A DNA stretch of 64,000 nt from positions 1-64,000 of IMG/VR virus record IMGVR_UViG_3300015371_000010; one strand, written 5' to 3'. The translations under genes were made by a program, and so were the position numbers. Numbering within the stretch: position 1 is the stretch's first letter; every line of letters begins with the position of its first letter. Shown piece after piece: positions 1,009-9,700 of the stretch. The notes below the pieces were generated by a model. That model was not told the origin of the DNA and made no database searches. It worked only from the letters and a program-made list of their open reading frames with translations. This DNA comes from a virus.

Positions 1009-1256
1009 CGGACGATCACCTCCTGCTCGGAGATGACCTCGATCTTGGTGTAGCCGTGGCCGTTGCCCAGTACCTCCTGAGCCTTGGCCCAGATGGCCGG
1101 CATCACCTTGACGTGCCGTAGGTCCCCAGAGCGCTTCTGAGGCTTCTTCCGCTCCTGGGTGGGGGTTGGGTCCACCTCACCGCTGGCGACGGCCTGAACG
1201 GCCTTTTCATGCAGACTGGCGGTCTCCTGGACCGTCCTGCCCTTCTTCTGATTCAT
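1005..1256 (-). CDS. Hypothetical protein
   Basis: 83 aa; GAAGGAATGAG SD upstream; 4-nt overlap with the next gene. Confidence 0.65.
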   Translation of the reverse strand: MNQKKGRTVQETASLHEKAVQAVASGEVDPTPTQERKKPQKRSGDLRHVKVMPAIWAKAQEVLGNGHGYTKIEVISEQEVIVR

Positions 1257-1458
1257 CTGATCTCATTCCTTCCATCAGAGCCATCAGCTCTGCAGGTTCC
1301 TTCAGTACCGGACCCTCGATGCACCAGGGCCCGTCCGGAGTGCGGTGCCGGCTGATCGGCCGGCCCGAGGTCATGTAGACATCAGACCCGCAGGTCTCGC
1401 ATGCGACGTACCAGCCCACATCAGTCCTCGGAGCCGTTCTTCTCCCCGAACTCCTCAT
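1207..1458 (-). CDS. Possible small Zn-ribbon protein (start uncertain)
   Basis: CETCGS...H...C; fills the gap between two leftward genes but overlaps both. Confidence 0.4.
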   Translation of the reverse strand: MRSSGRRTAPRTDVGWYVACETCGSDVYMTSGRPISRHRTPDGPWCIEGPVLKEPAELMALMEGMRSDESEEGQDGPGDRQSA

Positions 1459-1882
1459 CCGGGTCGACCATGTCCGGGTCGTCCAGGACCATCCTGGAGA
1501 ACTCCTCGTAGTGCGCGTACCGCGCCTTGAACCGCTTCCACTCCCGGAACATCTGCCGCAGCATGATGTTGCGCGAGATCGGGTCGACGATGACCTCTTC
1601 GATCGGTACGTACTGGCTCTCTGAGTCCTTCTCGGTCCCCTTGATCACCCAGAAGTGCCTCAGGTTAGCCACCTCTCCGCTCTCGGCGGTCTGCCGAAAC
1701 GTGACTCGCAGCAGCTGTGCCGCCTGGGCCAGCCGGTACTTCTCGGCCGCCACCGAGTCGTCCCACTCGAACTTGTCGTGCAGCGGGTGCTCCGGGTCCG
1801 TCGCCTCGGCCAGCACGATGGCCGGCGTCAGCTTGCCCCGCTCCTCTCGGATCCTGAGGAGCTCTGTCTTCAGATCACTCAT
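1421..1882 (-). CDS. Conserved phage protein; putative accessory protein of the RAMP/array locus
   Basis: 153 aa; GKLTP...ATDPEHPLHDKFEWDDSVAAEKYRLAQA motif; strong SD (GAAAGGAATGAG); begins right where the array ends. Confidence 0.8.
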   Translation of the reverse strand: MSDLKTELLRIREERGKLTPAIVLAEATDPEHPLHDKFEWDDSVAAEKYRLAQAAQLLRVTFRQTAESGEVANLRHFWVIKGTEKDSESQYVPIEEVIVDPISRNIMLRQMFREWKRFKARYAHYEEFSRMVLDDPDMVDPDEEFGEKNGSED

Positions 1883-1900
1883 CTCATTCCTTTCATGTGT

Positions 1901-4673
1901 GTGGCCACGCTGGACCTAGCCCTACCAACCCAGATGCGGCCTTGCCTTGCCTGCCATGCCATCCGTTCCCTGTCCCGACGACCCAAGTCCTGCTTGCCAT
2001 GCCTGCCAGGCCTAGCGGGACCGCGAGCACCTGGCCTTGCCTGCCAAGATCCGCCCCGACTACCCATGAGTCGCTTTACCAAGAACGCCTTGCCTGCCCT
2101 GCCGAGTACGCCTAGCCCGGGCTTGCCCATCGAGCCGTTCCTTGCCTGCCCCGTCTTGCCCCCACAAGCCAAGACCCAGACGGCCATGCCTGCCCTGTCT
2201 TGCCGTGACGAATCCGCCAAGCCCACCATCCGAGCTGCACCATGCCTGCCATGCCCCGTCGTCCTCGACGCACCGATCGACCGCGCCGACCACGTCCCGC
2301 CTAAACCAGCCTGCCGCGCCGGGTCGTGCCGTGATTGCCTTGCCACGACCGGCAGAGCCTGCCGCGCCGGATTCAGCCATCCCCGCCGTGTCAAACTCAC
2401 CACGCCTGCCCTGTGCTGCCCTGTACTGCCTTGGCACACCTACCCAAGCCAGGGAGCACCCTGCCTGCCAGGCCAACCCAGCCTTGAACGCCGCAGTAAG
2501 CCTTGCCGCTCAGCGCCTGCCCAACCGGGACTCGCCTTGCGCCGACCAATGGGACACGCGATGCCATGCCTGCCGAGACTTGCCTTGCACTCCAAGACGG
2601 GCCTGGACTACCCAGTGATGACCTGCCGACGGCCACCTCGACGAGCCATGCCTGCCCTGCCCCGGTTCCCAAGCACCGCTGCACCGGGCCGTGACGTGAA
2701 TGCCATGCCTGCCATGCCTGGCCAAGTCCGGCGATCCCGCGCCTAGTCGCAGATAGCCCTGTGATGCCCCGCCTGCCGTGCCTGGCCTCGACTCAATGGG
2801 ACTGACCGAGACCGAATCGCCCAGCCTGCCGTGCCTGGACATGCGCGTGCCCACCCAGACCCAACGAGCCTGCCTCGCCAAGCCTTGGCATGACCGGATC
2901 CCGTACCGGGCCTGCCTCGCCCTGCCTGGTCTGGACTTGAGTTACCTCGTCACACCAGGTGTTGCCCCGCCTGCCATGCCGACCAAGCCGAGCGGTGCCA
3001 TCCCTCTGGACCACCCGTGCCTTGCCTGCCGTGACCGGAGAGACCTCGCCACGCCGTCCGCACGCCCTACCTACTCGGGCCCTGCCAACGGTGCCATGCC
3101 TGCCACGTACTGCCGGAGAGCGCCGTCCAAACCAAGACCGTCCATGCCTGCCACGCCGGACACTGTCACACACGCCAAGACCAGCAATCCAAGCCCATCC
3201 ATGCCTGCCGGGCCGGGCCGCGCCGTCCCCGACGCTGACAAGAAGTACCTAACCCTGATACGCCATGTGATGCCTGGCCTGCCGTGATCGGCCATGCCAC
3301 CCAACTGCCCCGTTATCCGAGCCCTGGCACACCTGCCATGACTCACCACGCCCAGCACCGTTGAGCCAACCGAACCCAACCTCGCCTGCCGCACCTAGTC
3401 GGGCCTCGCCGTCGGTAGCCAAGCCGGGACTGCCATGTCCTGCCGGAGCAAGACCTGATCTGCCTGGCCTGCCGCACCAGAACGAACCACACCTATCGGA
3501 GCCAAGGTGCCCATCCGAACCGCGCCTGCCCAGCCATGACCGTCGAACCTCACCGAGCCACGGGGCGCCTGCCGAGACAAGACACACCGATGCCCAACTT
3601 GTCCGGCCGTGCCAAGCCTGCCTCGTCGTACCACACCGGGTCGGACCGGCCCAAGCTACGCAGTGCCATGTGACGCCTTGCCTGCCACACCGCCCAAGCC
3701 AAGTCCTGGTGAGCCATGCCTGCCGTGCTCCGCCATGCCTAGTAGTGCCGGAACCGGCCACCCGAGCCACTTGACCCTGCCTGCCCTGTCCCGCCCACCC
3801 TAGACACTGACAGCCTTGTTCTGCCCTGCCTGCCGCGCTCCGCCATGCCGCTGCGAAACCGACCTAGCCGCGCCATCGGCCGCCCCGCCTAGCCTGCCGC
3901 GCTTCGCCATCCGGACCACGGATACCCTGCCGGTCCTTGCCTAACCTGCCACGCAGCCAAGCCGTGATTGCCTTACCCGAGCTAGCCGCGCCTGCCACGT
4001 GGGGCCACGTACCGACTTGTCCCGTGATGCCTGGTCTTGCCTAGCCTGCCATGCCCCGAGACGCCGAGCGCTGAATGACGGGTCATCCATGCCTAGCCTG
4101 CCTGACCATGCCGATCCGGACCGTCCCTGGCCGAACCTGCCTAACCATGCCGAGACCGACCCGACCATGAACGGTCGAACCCTGCCTGCCAGGTCAGGCC
4201 CAACCACGCTCCGCCTCACCGTGCCGGGCGAAGACAGCCGTGCCTGCCGTGCCGTGCCTAGCCGGGCCTAGCCAAGGGCCGCCTTGCCTGCCCCGCCGAC
4301 CAAGCCTTGCCAAGCGTCACCAAGCCGGGCCTGCCGAGCACTGCCTAGAATGCCGCGTCGCCCATGACCAGACCCGCTGAGCCTGCCCAGCCATGCCAGG
4401 CCTCGCCTTGCCGCGCCGTGCCTAGCCGGGCCTAGCCTGCCCTGCCGTGCGATGACGCCCTCGCCGGGACGACCCAGAGGATGCCTTGCCGCGCCTGCCA
4501 AGCCCATCCAAGCAGCACTTACCCGGCCGCGCCCCGTGGGACCGCGTCGAGGACCCGGGGGCAGGTGGGTTCCCTGGCCGTCCTGCCCCCGGGTGGTTCT
4601 TGCCTGCCCCGCCGCGCCATGTTCAAGCCATAACGTTCCTGGCCCTACCAAGCGCCGCCACGACATGCCTGCC
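1901..4673 (-). repeat. Non-coding array of ~50 units: GGCAGGC handle + (NN-GGY)n pentamers; candidate guide-RNA array
   Basis: Manual count: 47 exact GCCTGCC (+ strand; 1949, 2001, 2039 ... 4602, 4667) plus 4 ACCTGCC variants, mostly 42-65 nt apart. A 5-nt NN-RCC period lies between them, e.g. 4381-4441 gcctgcc cagcc atgcc aggcc tcgcc ttgcc gcgcc gtgcc tagcc gggcc ta gcctgcc. No credible ORF. Confidence 0.9.
4553..4594. other. Perfect 13-bp hairpin inside the array
   Basis: ACCCGGGGGCAGG (4553-4565) / CCTGCCCCCGGGT (4582-4594), 16-nt loop. Confidence 0.8.
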
Positions 4674-5440
4674 TAGCTGATGACCTCGACTTGCTTGGCC
4701 GGATTGATGCAATAGGTGCCGTATTCGCCGCGCCTCTCCGGACGCCACTCACCGACACCCACACCGAGGCCGCCGGCCTCGATGAGACTGAGGACCGAAT
4801 CCCTGGTCAACATTGACTTGACGTAGGTGACATCCAACGTGGTCTCCCACTCCTGCCAGCAGGGCCGGTAGCGGAGGTCGGTGCCACCGTTTCCAACCCT
4901 GACCACGTCCTCGCGCATCTCCGGCGTGCCTGAGATGCGAGCCAGCATCATCCCCTCGCCCTTGGAGAACTCGCCACCAATGAAAACCGTCTGGCGCAGA
5001 CCAACCATCGTCACCGACTTGCCGAAGAACCTGGCGGCGGAGACGGTGGCGGACTTGAAGGCGATGGCCGGGATGCCATAGCCCCCGTCGTCGAGCCGGT
5101 AGGCCGCTGCCTCGTACTCGGCCTCTGGGTTCTTGGGCTCCTTGGGGGACTTGCGTCCCTGCATCGCGTCCAGCATCTGCCTCTTCGCCTTCTCGCTGAA
5201 CTTGTGCGTGATCAGCGGGGAGGTGCCGAGCAGTGGAACGCGCACCGTCTCGGTGGCGATCTTGGAGATGACGATCTGACCCTCGGGCATCGTGTGCTCG
5301 GTGGTCTGCGGCTTCTTCAGGGGCGTCGTCGTCACCCCGTTGCCCGACGGCCTGGTCACCGCCGTGGCCTTGGCGGCCTTGGTGGCCTTCTTGACTGCCT
5401 TCTTTGCCGCCTTCTTGGCCGGCATCGCATCTACTGACAT
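4673..5440 (-). CDS. Stand-alone RAMP (Cas7/Csm3-like) protein with Lys/Ala-rich N-terminal tail
   Basis: RAMP-like motif order: VRVPLLGTSPLITH (beta1), YGIPAIAFKSAT (IPxSxxKG-like), DLRYRP.W..W, C-terminal Gly-rich loop GLGVGVGEWRPERRGEYGTY; SD GAAAGGA upstream. Confidence 0.75.
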   Translation of the reverse strand: MSVDAMPAKKAAKKAVKKATKAAKATAVTRPSGNGVTTTPLKKPQTTEHTMPEGQIVISKIATETVRVPLLGTSPLITHKFSEKAKRQMLDAMQGRKSPKEPKNPEAEYEAAAYRLDDGGYGIPAIAFKSATVSAARFFGKSVTMVGLRQTVFIGGEFSKGEGMMLARISGTPEMREDVVRVGNGGTDLRYRPCWQEWETTLDVTYVKSMLTRDSVLSLIEAGGLGVGVGEWRPERRGEYGTYCINPAKQVEVIS

Positions 5441-5465
5441 GATGGTGGTTCATTCCTTTCATGAG

Positions 5466-5506
5466 CAGGGGCCCGGGAACTCATCTCCCGGGCCCCTGTG
5501 CTTTTT
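5466..5506 (+). terminator. 13-bp hairpin with T-tract on the + strand, just upstream of the RAMP gene SD
   Basis: CAGGGGCCCGGGA-actcatc-TCCCGGGCCCCTG followed by tgcttttt. Confidence 0.6.
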
Positions 5507-5722
5507 CTAGTGCCAGGACAGGACAAGCATTCCGCCGCTGTCCCAGGCGGTCGTGGAGGTGGCCAGCGCCTTCTCGATGGCTGGCAACCTGAACGGTGGG
5601 ATGTTGCGGTGGCCGATCTCCCAGGCACTGACGACCTGGGCTGAGACCCCCATCTCCTCGGCCAGCTGTGACTGGCTCATCCCAGCCTCGTGTCGCCGGC
5701 TCTTGAGCTCCTCACCGGTCAT
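5507..5722 (-). CDS. XRE/Cro-family HTH regulator
   Basis: LKSRRHEAGMSQSQLAEEMGVSAQVVSAWEIG; ATG at 5722 with GAAAGGA SD. Confidence 0.85.
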   Translation of the reverse strand: MTGEELKSRRHEAGMSQSQLAEEMGVSAQVVSAWEIGHRNIPPFRLPAIEKALATSTTAWDSGGMLVLSWH

Positions 5723-5750
5723 GTGTGTCCTTTCGTCGTTTGTCACTGCG

Positions 5751-5972
5751 TCAATCCCTCGCTCGGTGGTACGTCTCCACAACGGCCAGAACCGTGGTGA
5801 TCCACTGAGCAGCATGCAGGTCCACCGGCCAGACGACCCGTCGATCGGTGAACGTCATGATGAAGCCGTACTGACCGACCACGCGCTTGACCGTCTCCTC
5901 GGGGAGGTGGTCAGGAACGTCGATCGACCATTGCGGCACTGATCCGTCGTCGAGCTCAAGCAACGTGGTCAC
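5751..5972 (-). CDS. Hypothetical protein
   Basis: 73 aa, tiled in the operon. Confidence 0.55.
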   Translation of the reverse strand: MTTLLELDDGSVPQWSIDVPDHLPEETVKRVVGQYGFIMTFTDRRVVWPVDLHAAQWITTVLAVVETYHRARD

Positions 5973-6213
5973 ACTCGAACACGCCGGAGTGGATCAGGTG
6001 CACAGACTCGCCGTCCTTGGTGATCTCCAGCACGACCTTGCGGACGTGCAGAGACTCGGCCAGCTGACCGATCGGCTCGATGGCCTCGGCCAGCATCTTG
6101 CTGTACTCCTCGGTCGCGTCTCCCACGGTGGAGTGGTGATGCGTGAACTCGACCTCGTTGCAGTAGGTGATGGTGACGGTGATGACGCTGCCGTCCACTG
6201 CGGTGATGGTCAA
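5956..6213 (-). CDS. Hypothetical protein
   Basis: 85 aa; TTG start after the ACATCACAT-GAGAGGA motif. Confidence 0.6.
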   Translation of the reverse strand: MTITAVDGSVITVTITYCNEVEFTHHHSTVGDATEEYSKMLAEAIEPIGQLAESLHVRKVVLEITKDGESVHLIHSGVFECDHVA

Positions 6214-9299: not shown

Positions 9300-9700
9300 A
9301 GTCCGCCGACGACCTCAGTCGGAGGCGGCGCAGGAGGCGTCGTCGGCGGTGGTGACGGCGGCGGCGTGTTGTGCGTAGGCGGAGGTGTGGGCGGGCTGGT
9401 CGGCGGCGTCGTTGGCGGCGTCGTCGGCGGGCTCGTTGGGGGCGTCGTCGGTGGGCTCGTCGGAGGCGAGGTCGGCGGCGTCGTAGGTGGAGTTGTCGGC
9501 GGTGTCGTCGGTGGTGTAGTCGGCGGCGTCGTCGGCGGCGTACTGGTTGGGTACGTCGGCGTAGGCGTTGGCGAGTGCGTGTAGTGCGTACCCGTCGGGG
9601 TGGGCGATGGCGTGCCTCCGCCACCGCCCAACGATGCCCCGTTGGCTGCAGCGCACCCCGTCAGTGGCACCAACAGGGCCACTGCGAACAGTCGTTTCAT
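9296..9700 (-). CDS. Pro/Thr-rich lipoprotein; candidate sortase partner
   Basis: Lipobox LTG-C; about ten PPT(T/S) repeats; ends PPTEVVGGL; GTGA overlap with the sortase gene. Confidence 0.7.
   Translation of the reverse strand: MKRLFAVALLVPLTGCAAANGASLGGGGGTPSPTPTGTHYTHSPTPTPTYPTSTPPTTPPTTPPTTPPTTPPTTPPTSPPTSPPTTPPTSPPTTPPTTPPTSPPTPPPTHNTPPPSPPPTTPPAPPPTEVVGGL

What the first reader, a model, noticed from the sequence alone, without database searches (positions are those of the whole stretch)
1421..5722. Phage-encoded RAMP/Cas7-like gene + 2.8 kb GGY/NN pentamer array + accessory gene: candidate non-CRISPR RNA-guided system
Seen in sequence: on the minus strand the order is HTH (5507-5722), a 255-aa gene (4673-5440), an array (4673-1901) and a 153-aa gene (1882-1421). 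The array starts inside the stop codon (TAG-GCAGGC) and ends at the SD of the next gene, so all parts probably share one transcript. Established knowledge: the 255-aa protein has RAMP motif order (beta1 with SPL, IPxxxxK, C-terminal Gly-rich loop), and RAMPs such as Cas7 polymerise on guide RNA with a fixed nucleotide step. No cas1, cas2, cas3, cas10 or cas5/6 gene and no canonical CRISPR array is in the window. Inference: each unit is cut out as a ~45-65 nt RNA coated by one RAMP subunit per 5-nt repeat. The conserved GGY would be protein-bound and the variable NN would carry targeting information, probably against competing phages or host genes and probably by binding or silencing, since no nuclease gene sits in the locus. 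From memory this resembles the recently described VIPR (GGY/NN-guided) architecture. I cannot verify that here. If it holds, this instance has about 50 units.
Basis: partly seen in the sequence, partly recalled or inferred. Interest (0 to 1): 0.97.

Follow-up and report, generated by a model that had tools for sequence, protein, structure and literature searches.

The report
Phage VIPR system with fifty-guide array
This soil-type phage carries a clear example of the VIPR system first described in 2026: a lone Cas7-like protein, about 50 guide-RNA units built from five-letter repeats, and a small accessory gene, so it is a real system of a known kind.

Summary
On the minus strand lie a 255-aa gene (5440-4673), a 2.8-kb array with a 5-nt period (4673-1901) and a 153-aa gene (1882-1421).

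VIPR is in print as three bioRxiv preprints from 2026.
- **Relatives:** of 24 related loci, 22 have a same-strand GGY-NN array and 22 have a homologue of the 153-aa gene.
- **Array:** about 50 units of median 53 nt, joined head to tail at GGC-A-GGC, with no tail and no ribozyme. This fits the "staggered" array named in a figure legend.

Arrays this large also occur in relatives (52, 65 and 71 junctions), and their content turns over fast.

Read by the published 1-nt-skip rule, unit 1 matches the vipr gene of the closest relative at 22 of 24 informative bases. It matches the phage's own vipr at 20 of 24. No other unit gave a target above chance.

This scan had already noted VIPR arrays on other DNA (865 notes). 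Verdict: a new member of a known kind.

The parts
4673..5440 (-). vipr: a 255-aa Cas7-like RAMP. Residues 1-50 form a disordered Lys/Ala-rich tail and residues 57-255 form the RAMP core. The G-loop is GVGVGEWRP at 226-234.
1901..4673 (-). vrRNA array: about 50 head-to-tail units of median 53 nt. Each is a run of GGY-NN pentamers, and units are joined at a 4-nt step, GGC-A-GGC.
   Evidence: No Rfam family in 1200-6000 at E <= 1.
4609..4669 (-). Unit 1 of the array (12 NN, 24 informative bases). Its code is AT.GT.GG.TT.AG.CA.AC.AT.TT.AT.GC.GG.
   Evidence: By the 1-nt-skip rule it matches the vipr gene of L014 at 22 of 24 and the phage's own vipr at 20 of 24. 30 shuffles of NN order gave a mean of 16.5 and a maximum of 18. 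Skip 0 and skip 2 each gave 16.
4974..5009 (-). Site inside the phage's own vipr gene (codons M-V-G-L-R-Q-T-V-F-I-G-G) that unit 1 matches at 20 of 24. The skipped base falls on the wobble position.
   Evidence: and the sequence.
4388..4437 (-). The cleanest unit: 10 uninterrupted GGC-NN pentamers. Its code is TA.CC.TA.AC.GC.AA.GA.CT.AT.TG.
   Evidence: Candidate targets are unresolved.
1421..1882 (-). vap-like accessory gene, 153 aa. Residues 1-99 look like a winged helix, followed by a long helix at 101-133.
5507..5722 (-). Upstream Cro/CI-type HTH gene. It is a neighbour, not a conserved part of the system.
   Evidence: Pfam HTH_3, E 5.5e-13. tblastn finds it in none of the 24 related loci.
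5465..5499 (.). A 14-bp GC-rich hairpin between the HTH gene and vipr.
   Evidence: It is scored as a terminator on the + strand only. Its role on the minus strand is unknown.

Best explanation
This is a VIPR (Viral Interference Programmable Repeat) system on a complete 82.7-kb, 65.5% GC phage genome from soil or rhizosphere-type metagenomes.

Inferred by homology to the studied SUSP1 system:
- The 2.8-kb array is transcribed on the minus strand, probably together with vipr and vap.
- It gives about 50 guide RNAs of roughly 50 nt.
- Vipr protomers line up along each guide, one per pentamer. They hold the GGY bases and present the two NN bases.
- The filament binds double-stranded DNA whose sequence matches the NN pairs with one base skipped between pairs. 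This blocks transcription of that DNA.
- The winged-helix-like Vap probably helps at the DNA.

Shown here: the protein belongs to the family and keeps the GGY-reading residues. The array and vap travel with vipr across relatives. Units abut at GGC-A-GGC with no tail. One guide obeys the 1-nt-skip code on a natural sequence, namely the vipr gene of the closest relative (22 of 24) and, less well, the phage's own vipr (20 of 24).

That points to rivalry between related phages, or to self-regulation. What the other units (about 49) target is unknown.
For: (1) Sequence homology to the solved SUSP1 Vipr: E 4.9e-5 for the single protein and 9.8e-7 for a 26-sequence profile.

(2) In the alignment, SUSP1 R138, W178 and R179 align with R192, W232 and R233 here, and D177 aligns with E231. 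The cryo-EM paper names these residues as the contacts for G1, G2 and Y3 (section 5). All four are invariant in the 26-sequence family alignment.

(4) 22 of 24 related loci carry a same-strand 5-nt-periodic array next to vipr or vap, and 22 of 24 carry a vap homologue.

(5) The array statistics are given above.

(6) The code test. Of the 47 units tested against 0.77 Mb of held DNA (both strands counted), only unit 1 exceeded its shuffles: 22 of 24 at the 1-nt skip against 16 at skip 0 and skip 2. The skipped base falls on the wobble position. The code spells M-V-G-L-R-Q-T-I-F-I-A-G, which is exactly the peptide of the relative. Among 266 units from six phages scanned against 48 vipr and vap genes, it is the only clear outlier.

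(7) vipr-targeting vrRNAs, and self-match scores lower than rival-match scores (the latter reported for vrRNA-targeting guides), are reported for SUSP1-family phages (10.64898/2026.10.15.759431, section 8).
Against: There is no evidence of transcription or processing. No RNA run is on record, and the laid runs are contigs.

No sigma-70-like promoter was found in 1200-6000.

About 32% of steps lack GG and 110 of 574 steps are 4 nt long. The one-protomer-per-pentamer picture is therefore only approximate here. In SUSP1, disturbing GGY abolished silencing.

46 of the 47 tested units have no target above chance in the phage's own contig, the related loci or five whole related phages.

Of 6 exact 20-base scans of IMG/VR and the metagenome collection, 4 found nothing. 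The other 2 found one hit each, which is about the number chance would give by my own rough estimate.

Unit 1 matches the phage's own gene at 83%. That is above the 80% line at which the first paper saw no self-targeting. Either the threshold does not carry over to this clade or the guide acts on its own locus.

Confidence: 0.9

Rival explanations
1. The array works as DNA, not RNA. It would be a set of phased protein-binding sites (iterons, a partition site or a packaging site), with GGCAGGC repeated about every five helical turns and bound by Vap or the HTH protein.
For: The junctions have a median spacing of 53 bp, close to five turns of B-DNA by established helix geometry. Vap looks like a winged helix. 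There is no direct proof of transcription.
Against: The neighbouring protein is a homologue of a protein solved with vrRNA and keeps its GGY-reading residues. The repeat is strictly on one strand, the same strand as vipr, in 22 of 24 loci. Unit 1 carries a gapped code for a coding sequence elsewhere, which a binding-site array has no reason to hold. Array content turns over while the flanks stay.
Confidence: 0.04
2. It is a decaying or inactive VIPR locus. The array is a relic in which GGY motifs and register have eroded, and few or no units still work.
For: Only 68% of steps start with GG here and in the closest relative L014, against 87-88% in L015 and L022. Junction spacings modulo 5 are scattered: 18 of 49 at 4, 14 at 3 and 11 at 2. 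46 of 47 tested units have no target.
Against: vipr and vap are intact, and the GGY-reading residues are invariant. Position 3 stays C or T in 147 of 155 non-GG steps, which points to selection rather than drift. In unit 1, the NN of the four non-GG steps match the relative's gene at 7 of 8 bases. [quoted passage not shown] Missing targets are expected when the rival elements have not been sequenced.
Confidence: 0.05
3. The region is an ordinary coding region or a simple satellite, and the periodicity comes from GC-rich composition.
For: Several ORFs of 90-190 aa are open across the array in both directions.
Against: Autocorrelation at lag 3 is low (0.231) while lag 5 is 0.414. A 5-nt period cannot be read in one frame. 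Shuffles give 44% GG steps against 68% observed. Tandem Repeats Finder finds only short patches, so this is not a simple satellite.
Confidence: 0.01

Closest known systems
VIPR systems (Vipr + vap + GGY/NN vrRNAs). The reference is the type II system of Escherichia phage SUSP1. Sources: bioRxiv 10.64898/2026.04.26.720920, 10.64898/2026.04.26.720927 and 10.64898/2026.10.15.759431.
   Same: A lone small RAMP homologous to SUSP1 Vipr, with the GGY-contact residues kept. Same-strand GGY-NN pentamer RNA genes beside it. A small accessory gene with a DNA-binding-like fold. A phage host genome. No Cas1 and no CRISPR repeats. One guide obeys the 1-nt-skip code with the skipped base on the wobble position. 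A guide aimed at a vipr gene.
   Different: SUSP1 has four vrRNAs of about 100 nt, each with 9-16 repeats and a conserved 3' tail with a pseudoknot. Here about 50 units of about 53 nt abut directly with no tail, and a third of the steps are not GGY. Vipr here has an extra Lys/Ala-rich tail of about 50 aa. The vap here has no detectable link to a named vap class, because the supplements that define vap1-6 and types I-VII were not open to me.
'Staggered vrRNA arrays' of VIPR (legend of fig. S18 in 10.64898/2026.04.26.720920; passage read).
   Same: The legend describes vrRNAs taken from positions that overlap by 1 nt, where the end of one marks the start of the next. That fits units joined at GGC-A-GGC, a 4-nt step that shifts the register by one.
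   Different: I saw only the legend, not the figure or the locus. That this array is the same class is my inference. The paper states that staggered arrays were not among those confirmed by small-RNA sequencing.
Backbone subunits of type III and type VII CRISPR-Cas (Csm3, Cmr4, Cas7).
   Different: About 10-16% identity. No Cas10, Cas5, Cas6 or Cas1 partners. A 5-nt step rather than 6-nt. Guides are repeats with a gapped code, not spacers.

Membership tests
VIPR system | The Vipr protein is a homologue of described Vipr proteins | tested here: met
   phmmer against PDB chain 36pp_D, 'SUSP1 Vipr protein': E 4.9e-5. A 26-sequence profile gives E 9.8e-7, with the next hit at E 0.93. The alignment covers only the C-terminal 60 residues or so.
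VIPR system | Residues that read GGY (SUSP1 R138, D177, W178, R179) | tested here: met
   They align to R192, E231, W232 and R233. All four are invariant in 26 family members. Asp is replaced by Glu. H17, E71 and M72 lie outside the aligned stretch and were not tested.
VIPR system | Adjacent RNA genes made of tandem YNNGG/GGYNN pentamers (the paper's criterion is at least four units) | tested here: met
   388 of 574 steps start with GG and 346 with GGY. Uninterrupted runs reach 10 GGC-NN pentamers, at 4437-4388. The same holds in 22 of 24 related loci.
VIPR system | Conserved GGY positions with hypervariable NN positions | tested here: met
   In the logo around 47 junctions, information content is 0.7-1.5 bits at GGC positions and 0.02-0.27 bits at NN positions. 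NN base composition is near even.
VIPR system | An accessory vap gene in the locus | tested here: met
   A homologue of the 153-aa gene follows vipr in 22 of 24 loci. Which of vap1-6 it is could not be tested, because the supplements are closed.
VIPR system | The array is transcribed, and the vrRNAs co-purify with Vipr | not testable with these tools
   No RNA run is on record for this DNA. The laid runs are contigs.
VIPR system | Target recognition by the 1-nt-skip rule | tested here: inconclusive
   One unit of the 47 tested fits: 22 of 24 at skip 1 against 16 at skip 0 and skip 2, with a shuffle maximum of 18. The other 46 have no match above chance.
VIPR type II (SUSP1-like) | vrRNAs of about 100 nt with a conserved structured 3' tail | tested here: not met
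   Units have a median of 53 nt and abut at GGC-A-GGC with no room for a tail. No Rfam structure was found.
CRISPR-Cas | A repeat-spacer array and cas1/cas2 adaptation genes | tested here: not met
   There is no Cas1 (PF01867) in the 82.7-kb record, and the control rang in 7 of 14 genomes. No CRISPR-like tandem repeat was found in the window. cas2, cas3 and cas10 were not searched one by one.

The most novel reading that the evidence does not exclude
In this actinophage lineage VIPR has grown into guide libraries of 50-70 units that turn over as fast as CRISPR arrays, and that tolerate G-W-C in place of GGY at a third of the positions.

The unit placed first, directly behind the vipr stop codon, is aimed at vipr itself. 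It would then serve two ends: a weapon against the nearest kin phage, and, at 83% match, a brake on the phage's own vipr-array-vap operon. That would be a self-limiting feedback loop, which the passages I read do not describe for VIPR.
Probability: 0.25. Interest if true: 0.55.

Novelty: new member of a known kind. Interest (0 to 1): 0.35.

Why it matters
It extends the 2026 VIPR class to a complete high-GC soil phage and gives a workable test case.

- A tail-less, head-to-tail array of about 50 guides raises the question of how such units are cut apart.
- It also asks how strictly GGY is needed.
- One guide has a natural, checkable target, the vipr gene of a sister phage, that differs from the phage's own gene at two further informative bases.

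That pair is a ready experiment on how VIPR tells self from rival. It does not open a new category, and this scan had already logged many VIPR loci, including giant actinophage arrays.

Tried and rejected
**Targets for the other units.**
- All 47 units of 14 steps or fewer were scanned against the phage's own contig plus 24 loci. Three longer units were left out. Units from six phages were then scanned against six whole phage records, 1.43 Mb with both strands counted.
- Apart from unit 1, the only long-guide hit at 85% or more was unit 4437 on the N-terminus of an SNF2-type helicase gene (S-P-Y-T-A-K-D-L-V-R) in G002 and G003. It scored 17 of 20 and was in wobble phase. In the smaller database this unit's shuffles already reached 16 of 20, so I do not claim it.
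- Hits to 14- and 16-base guides were many and looked like noise.

**Exact scans.**
- Unit 4437 in IMG/VR: none.
- Unit 4437 in the metagenome collection: one hit, on a 1,171-bp, 65.5% GC contig. It lies antisense in an NAD-dependent epimerase ORF at V-H-I-S-S-L-A-V-Y-G-Y, in wobble phase. By my own rough estimate about one chance hit is expected, so it is unresolved.
- Unit 4437 at up to 2 mismatches in 401 genomes of one actinobacterial class: two copies in one genome, in a transposase-like ORF. The reversed-pattern control gave 0.
- Unit 4437 at up to 3 mismatches in five genomes: one hit.
- Units 2773, 2971 and 3279 (inner 20 bases): no exact hit in IMG/VR.
- Unit 3682: one exact hit, on a 49% GC viral contig, 21 of 24 over the whole unit, antisense and in frame in an ORF of unknown function. 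This is near chance expectation and is not claimed.
- Unit 1, with Y and M allowed at its two mismatches: only the contig of L014.

**Expression.** No RNA holder is listed. The two runs labelled RNA-Seq are marked 'probably DNA' and are contigs.

**Vap fold.** Foldseek gave nothing at E <= 0.001. A PDB sequence profile gave nothing below E 0.4.

**Phage relatives by DNA.** Megablast of 6000-30000 against the phage collection found no match.

**VIPR type.** I could not assign types I-VII or vap1-6. The text open to me does not define them by sequence, and the supplements (figs S16-S18, data S4) were not open. They may already show arrays of this size and this clade.

Full report
**What is there.**

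The window is the first 64 kb of a single 82,687-bp virus record. It is 65.5% GC, and CheckV rates it 100% complete and linear.

At its left end, on the minus strand, lie in order:
- a Cro/CI-type HTH gene at 5722-5507 (Pfam HTH_3, E 5.5e-13);
- a GC-rich hairpin at 5465-5499;
- a 255-aa ORF at 5440-4673;
- 2.8 kb without a convincing gene;
- a 153-aa ORF at 1882-1421.

Both ORFs are preceded by the same 14-nt ribosome-site context, at 5463 and 1897.

**The array is real.**

Base autocorrelation peaks at lag 5 (0.414) and is low at lag 3 (0.231), which rules out coding.

The heptamer GGCAGGC occurs 47 times on the minus strand inside 1900-4680 and only 6 times in the other 80 kb. None of the 10 plus-strand copies is in the array. 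Every 200-nt window of the contig with lag-5 autocorrelation of 0.37 or more lies in the array.

A logo centred on the 47 heptamers reads GGC NN GGC NN GGC NN [GGC A GGC] NN GGC NN GGY. The GGC positions are conserved and the NN positions carry almost no information.

A dynamic-programming parse of my own (heuristic) gives 574 steps: 442 of 5 nt and 110 of 4 nt. 388 steps begin with GG, which is 68% against 44% (sd 1.5) in shuffles. Splitting at the GGC-A-GGC junctions gives 50 units of 7-21 steps, with a median junction spacing of 53 nt.

A third of the steps are not GGY. Most of these are GTC, GAC or NNC, and position 3 is still C or T in 147 of 155. GG occupancy is 0.81 in the first fifth of the units and about 0.57 in the middle.

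No Rfam family, and so no hammerhead ribozyme, is found in 1200-6000.

**The protein.**

There is no Pfam family. PHROG 4652 matches, with unknown function.

phmmer against all PDB chains gives one hit, 36pp_D 'SUSP1 Vipr protein', at E 4.9e-5. A 26-sequence family profile raises this to 9.8e-7, with the next hit at E 0.93.

In that alignment SUSP1 R138, D177, W178 and R179 pair with R192, E231, W232 and R233. The cryo-EM preprint names these SUSP1 residues as the contacts of G1, G2 and Y3 of each GGY, and reports that D177A and R138A abolish silencing (section 5). All four are invariant in my family alignment.

The family is large: 2,769 proteins at E <= 0.001. In isolated phages it occurs in 34 records: 27 Mycobacterium phages, 5 Gordonia phages, 1 cyanophage and 1 Pseudomonas phage. 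In the listed rows it is annotated as hypothetical.

**What is known.**

A full-text search found three 2026 bioRxiv preprints on VIPR.

I read the following:
- For 10.64898/2026.04.26.720920: the abstract, the whole Results, four Methods sections and passages of figure legends.
- For the other two preprints: the abstract and one section each.

They describe the system as follows:
- Vipr is a minimal RAMP.
- A vap gene accompanies it.
- The vrRNAs have 9-16 YNNGG repeats.
- DNA is recognised by NN pairs with one base skipped.
- The result is transcriptional silencing.
- Targets lie in rival phages, satellites and other VIPR systems.
- There are seven types, with 'staggered', ribozyme-interspersed and single-vrRNA architectures.

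**Relatives.**

I collected 24 related loci: 3 isolated phages, 10 from genomes and MAGs, and 11 from IMG/VR. L011 and L016 give identical coordinates and scores and are probably one sequence.

- 22 of the 24 have a same-strand 5-nt-periodic array beside vipr or vap.
- 22 of the 24 have a homologue of the 153-aa gene downstream of vipr.
- The two exceptions are L020, whose contig ends at vipr, and L024, which matches only a 48-residue fragment.

The array can sit upstream of vipr, between vipr and vap, or after vap.

GGCAGG[CT] junctions recur in 21 of the 22 arrays. L018 has none.

The HTH gene has no homologue in any of the 24 loci.

Array size varies:
- 250-350 nt in the isolated phages Pipp, ODay and Saal;
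- about 1.2-1.3 kb in L012 and L013;
- 2.9 kb with 52 junctions in L014 (vipr 86% identical);
- 3.6 kb with 65 junctions in L022;
- 4.1 kb with 71 junctions in L015.

So the size here is shared by a sub-lineage that includes phages of 114-177 kb.

Against L014, vipr is 82% identical in DNA, but the arrays share only scattered, non-collinear units. The array content therefore turns over much faster than the flanking genes.

**The accessory protein.**

It has no Pfam family. PHROG 15946 matches, with unknown function.

**Does the code work here?**

Following the paper's rule (replace GGY by one wildcard and keep NN), I took the last two bases of every step as NN. I scanned 47 units against the phage's own contig and the 24 loci.

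Only unit 1 stands out.
- Unit 1 lies directly behind the vipr stop codon.
- It matches the vipr gene of L014 at 22 of 24 informative bases.
- 30 shuffles of NN order gave a mean of 16.5 and a maximum of 18.
- Skip 0 and skip 2 each gave 16.

The code predicts the peptide M-V-G-[FL]-[RS]-[HQ]-T-[IM]-[FL]-[IM]-A-G. L014 has M-V-G-L-R-Q-T-I-F-I-A-G at that place, and the skipped base falls on the wobble position.

The two mismatches are first positions of the Leu and Arg codons. One of them (guide U opposite target G) would be a G-U pair; that is my own inference.

The phage's own vipr, at the homologous site 5009-4974 (M-V-G-L-R-Q-T-V-F-I-G-G), matches at 20 of 24. In IMG/VR only the contig of L014 carries the site exactly, apart from those two positions.

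Among 266 units from six phages scanned against 48 vipr and vap genes, nothing else comes close.

The third preprint reports vipr-targeting vrRNAs and, for vrRNA-targeting guides, self-match scores lower than rival-match scores. The logic is therefore known. New here are the clade, the VIPR-positive carrier and the 83% self-match. That self-match is above the 80% line at which the first paper saw no self-targeting.

**Other targets.**

None is secure.

Unit 4437 is a perfect run of 10 pentamers.
- It scores 17 of 20 on an SNF2-type helicase gene of G002 and G003, a gene tblastn does not find in this phage's own record.
- It has one exact 20-of-20 hit on a short high-GC metagenome contig, inside the S-S-x-A-V-Y-G motif of an NAD-dependent epimerase gene.
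- In 401 actinobacterial genomes it has two near-matches, in a transposase-like ORF.

Unit 3682 has one exact 20-base hit on a 49% GC viral contig.

With seven exact scans in all, two lone hits are about what chance would give by my own rough estimate. I report these as leads only.

Two pairs of units share part of their code: 4437 with 4288 (TA.CC.TA.AC) and 2709 with 2359 (11 of 12 bases). This hints at tiling or variant coverage of the same targets.

**Mechanism and verdict.**

The best-supported reading, at confidence 0.9, is a working VIPR system. Vipr protomers would coat array-derived RNAs of about 50 nt, and the NN code would direct binding and silencing of rival DNA.

Shown here:
- homology to Vipr, with the GGY-reading residues kept;
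- the fold;
- linkage of vipr, array and vap across relatives;
- the array grammar;
- one natural match that obeys the code.

Inferred from the SUSP1 work:
- transcription and processing;
- filament assembly;
- DNA binding and silencing.

The array differs from the studied type II in three ways:
- it has no tail;
- its units are staggered head to tail;
- a third of its steps are degenerate.

It is a new member of a known kind. This scan had already noted such loci on other DNA: 865 notes in at least 506 genomes, among them giant actinophage arrays.

Noticed in passing
window 5291-5440 (minus strand; Vipr residues 1-50): Vipr here has a disordered, Lys/Ala-rich tail of about 50 aa (PAKKAAKKAVKK...). 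It resembles the basic tails of actinobacterial nucleoid proteins; that likeness is recalled, not tested. Similar tails are seen in 5 of the 26 aligned family members (this protein, P0005, P0008, P0011, P0020). Most members are about 205 aa and lack it.
   Followed up: partly
window 5450-5463 and 1884-1897 (minus strand): The same 14-nt stretch, CATGAAAGGAATGA, precedes the start codons of both vipr and the 153-aa gene. It occurs nowhere else on that strand of the contig.
   Followed up: partly
window 5465-5499: A 14-bp, 11-GC hairpin lies between the HTH gene and vipr. It is scored as an intrinsic terminator only for the + strand, where no upstream gene is evident.
   Followed up: no
window 9374-9541: A tandem repeat of period 12, with 11.9 copies (also scored as period 36), lies inside an ORF on the minus strand. 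I did not check that.
   Followed up: no
window 1400-5800 against runs X7 and X8: Contigs from two wastewater runs match single array units at 90-95% but join them in other orders, with joints that skip 786-1741 nt. This may mean relatives with reshuffled arrays, or cross-matching between repeats. The tool warns that such joints are unreliable below 95% likeness.
   Followed up: no
L011 and L016: A MAG contig labelled Solirubrobacteraceae (L011) and an IMG/VR contig (L016) give identical vipr, vap and array coordinates and scores. They are probably the same phage sequence filed twice.
   Followed up: no
PDB 36pp_D against the text of 10.64898/2026.04.26.720927: The paper names T175 in the Y3 pocket. 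By my count from the alignment, residue 175 of the deposited chain reads V, while C173, D177, W178, R179 and R138 agree. This is a minor discrepancy, or my miscount.
   Followed up: no
L003 (Mycobacterium phage Saal), L001 (Gordonia phage Pipp), L002 (Gordonia phage ODay): Well-known isolated actinophages carry the same vipr, vap and short-array module, annotated as hypothetical proteins. In Pipp a 'hypothetical protein' CDS (gene 43) is called across the array.
   Followed up: partly
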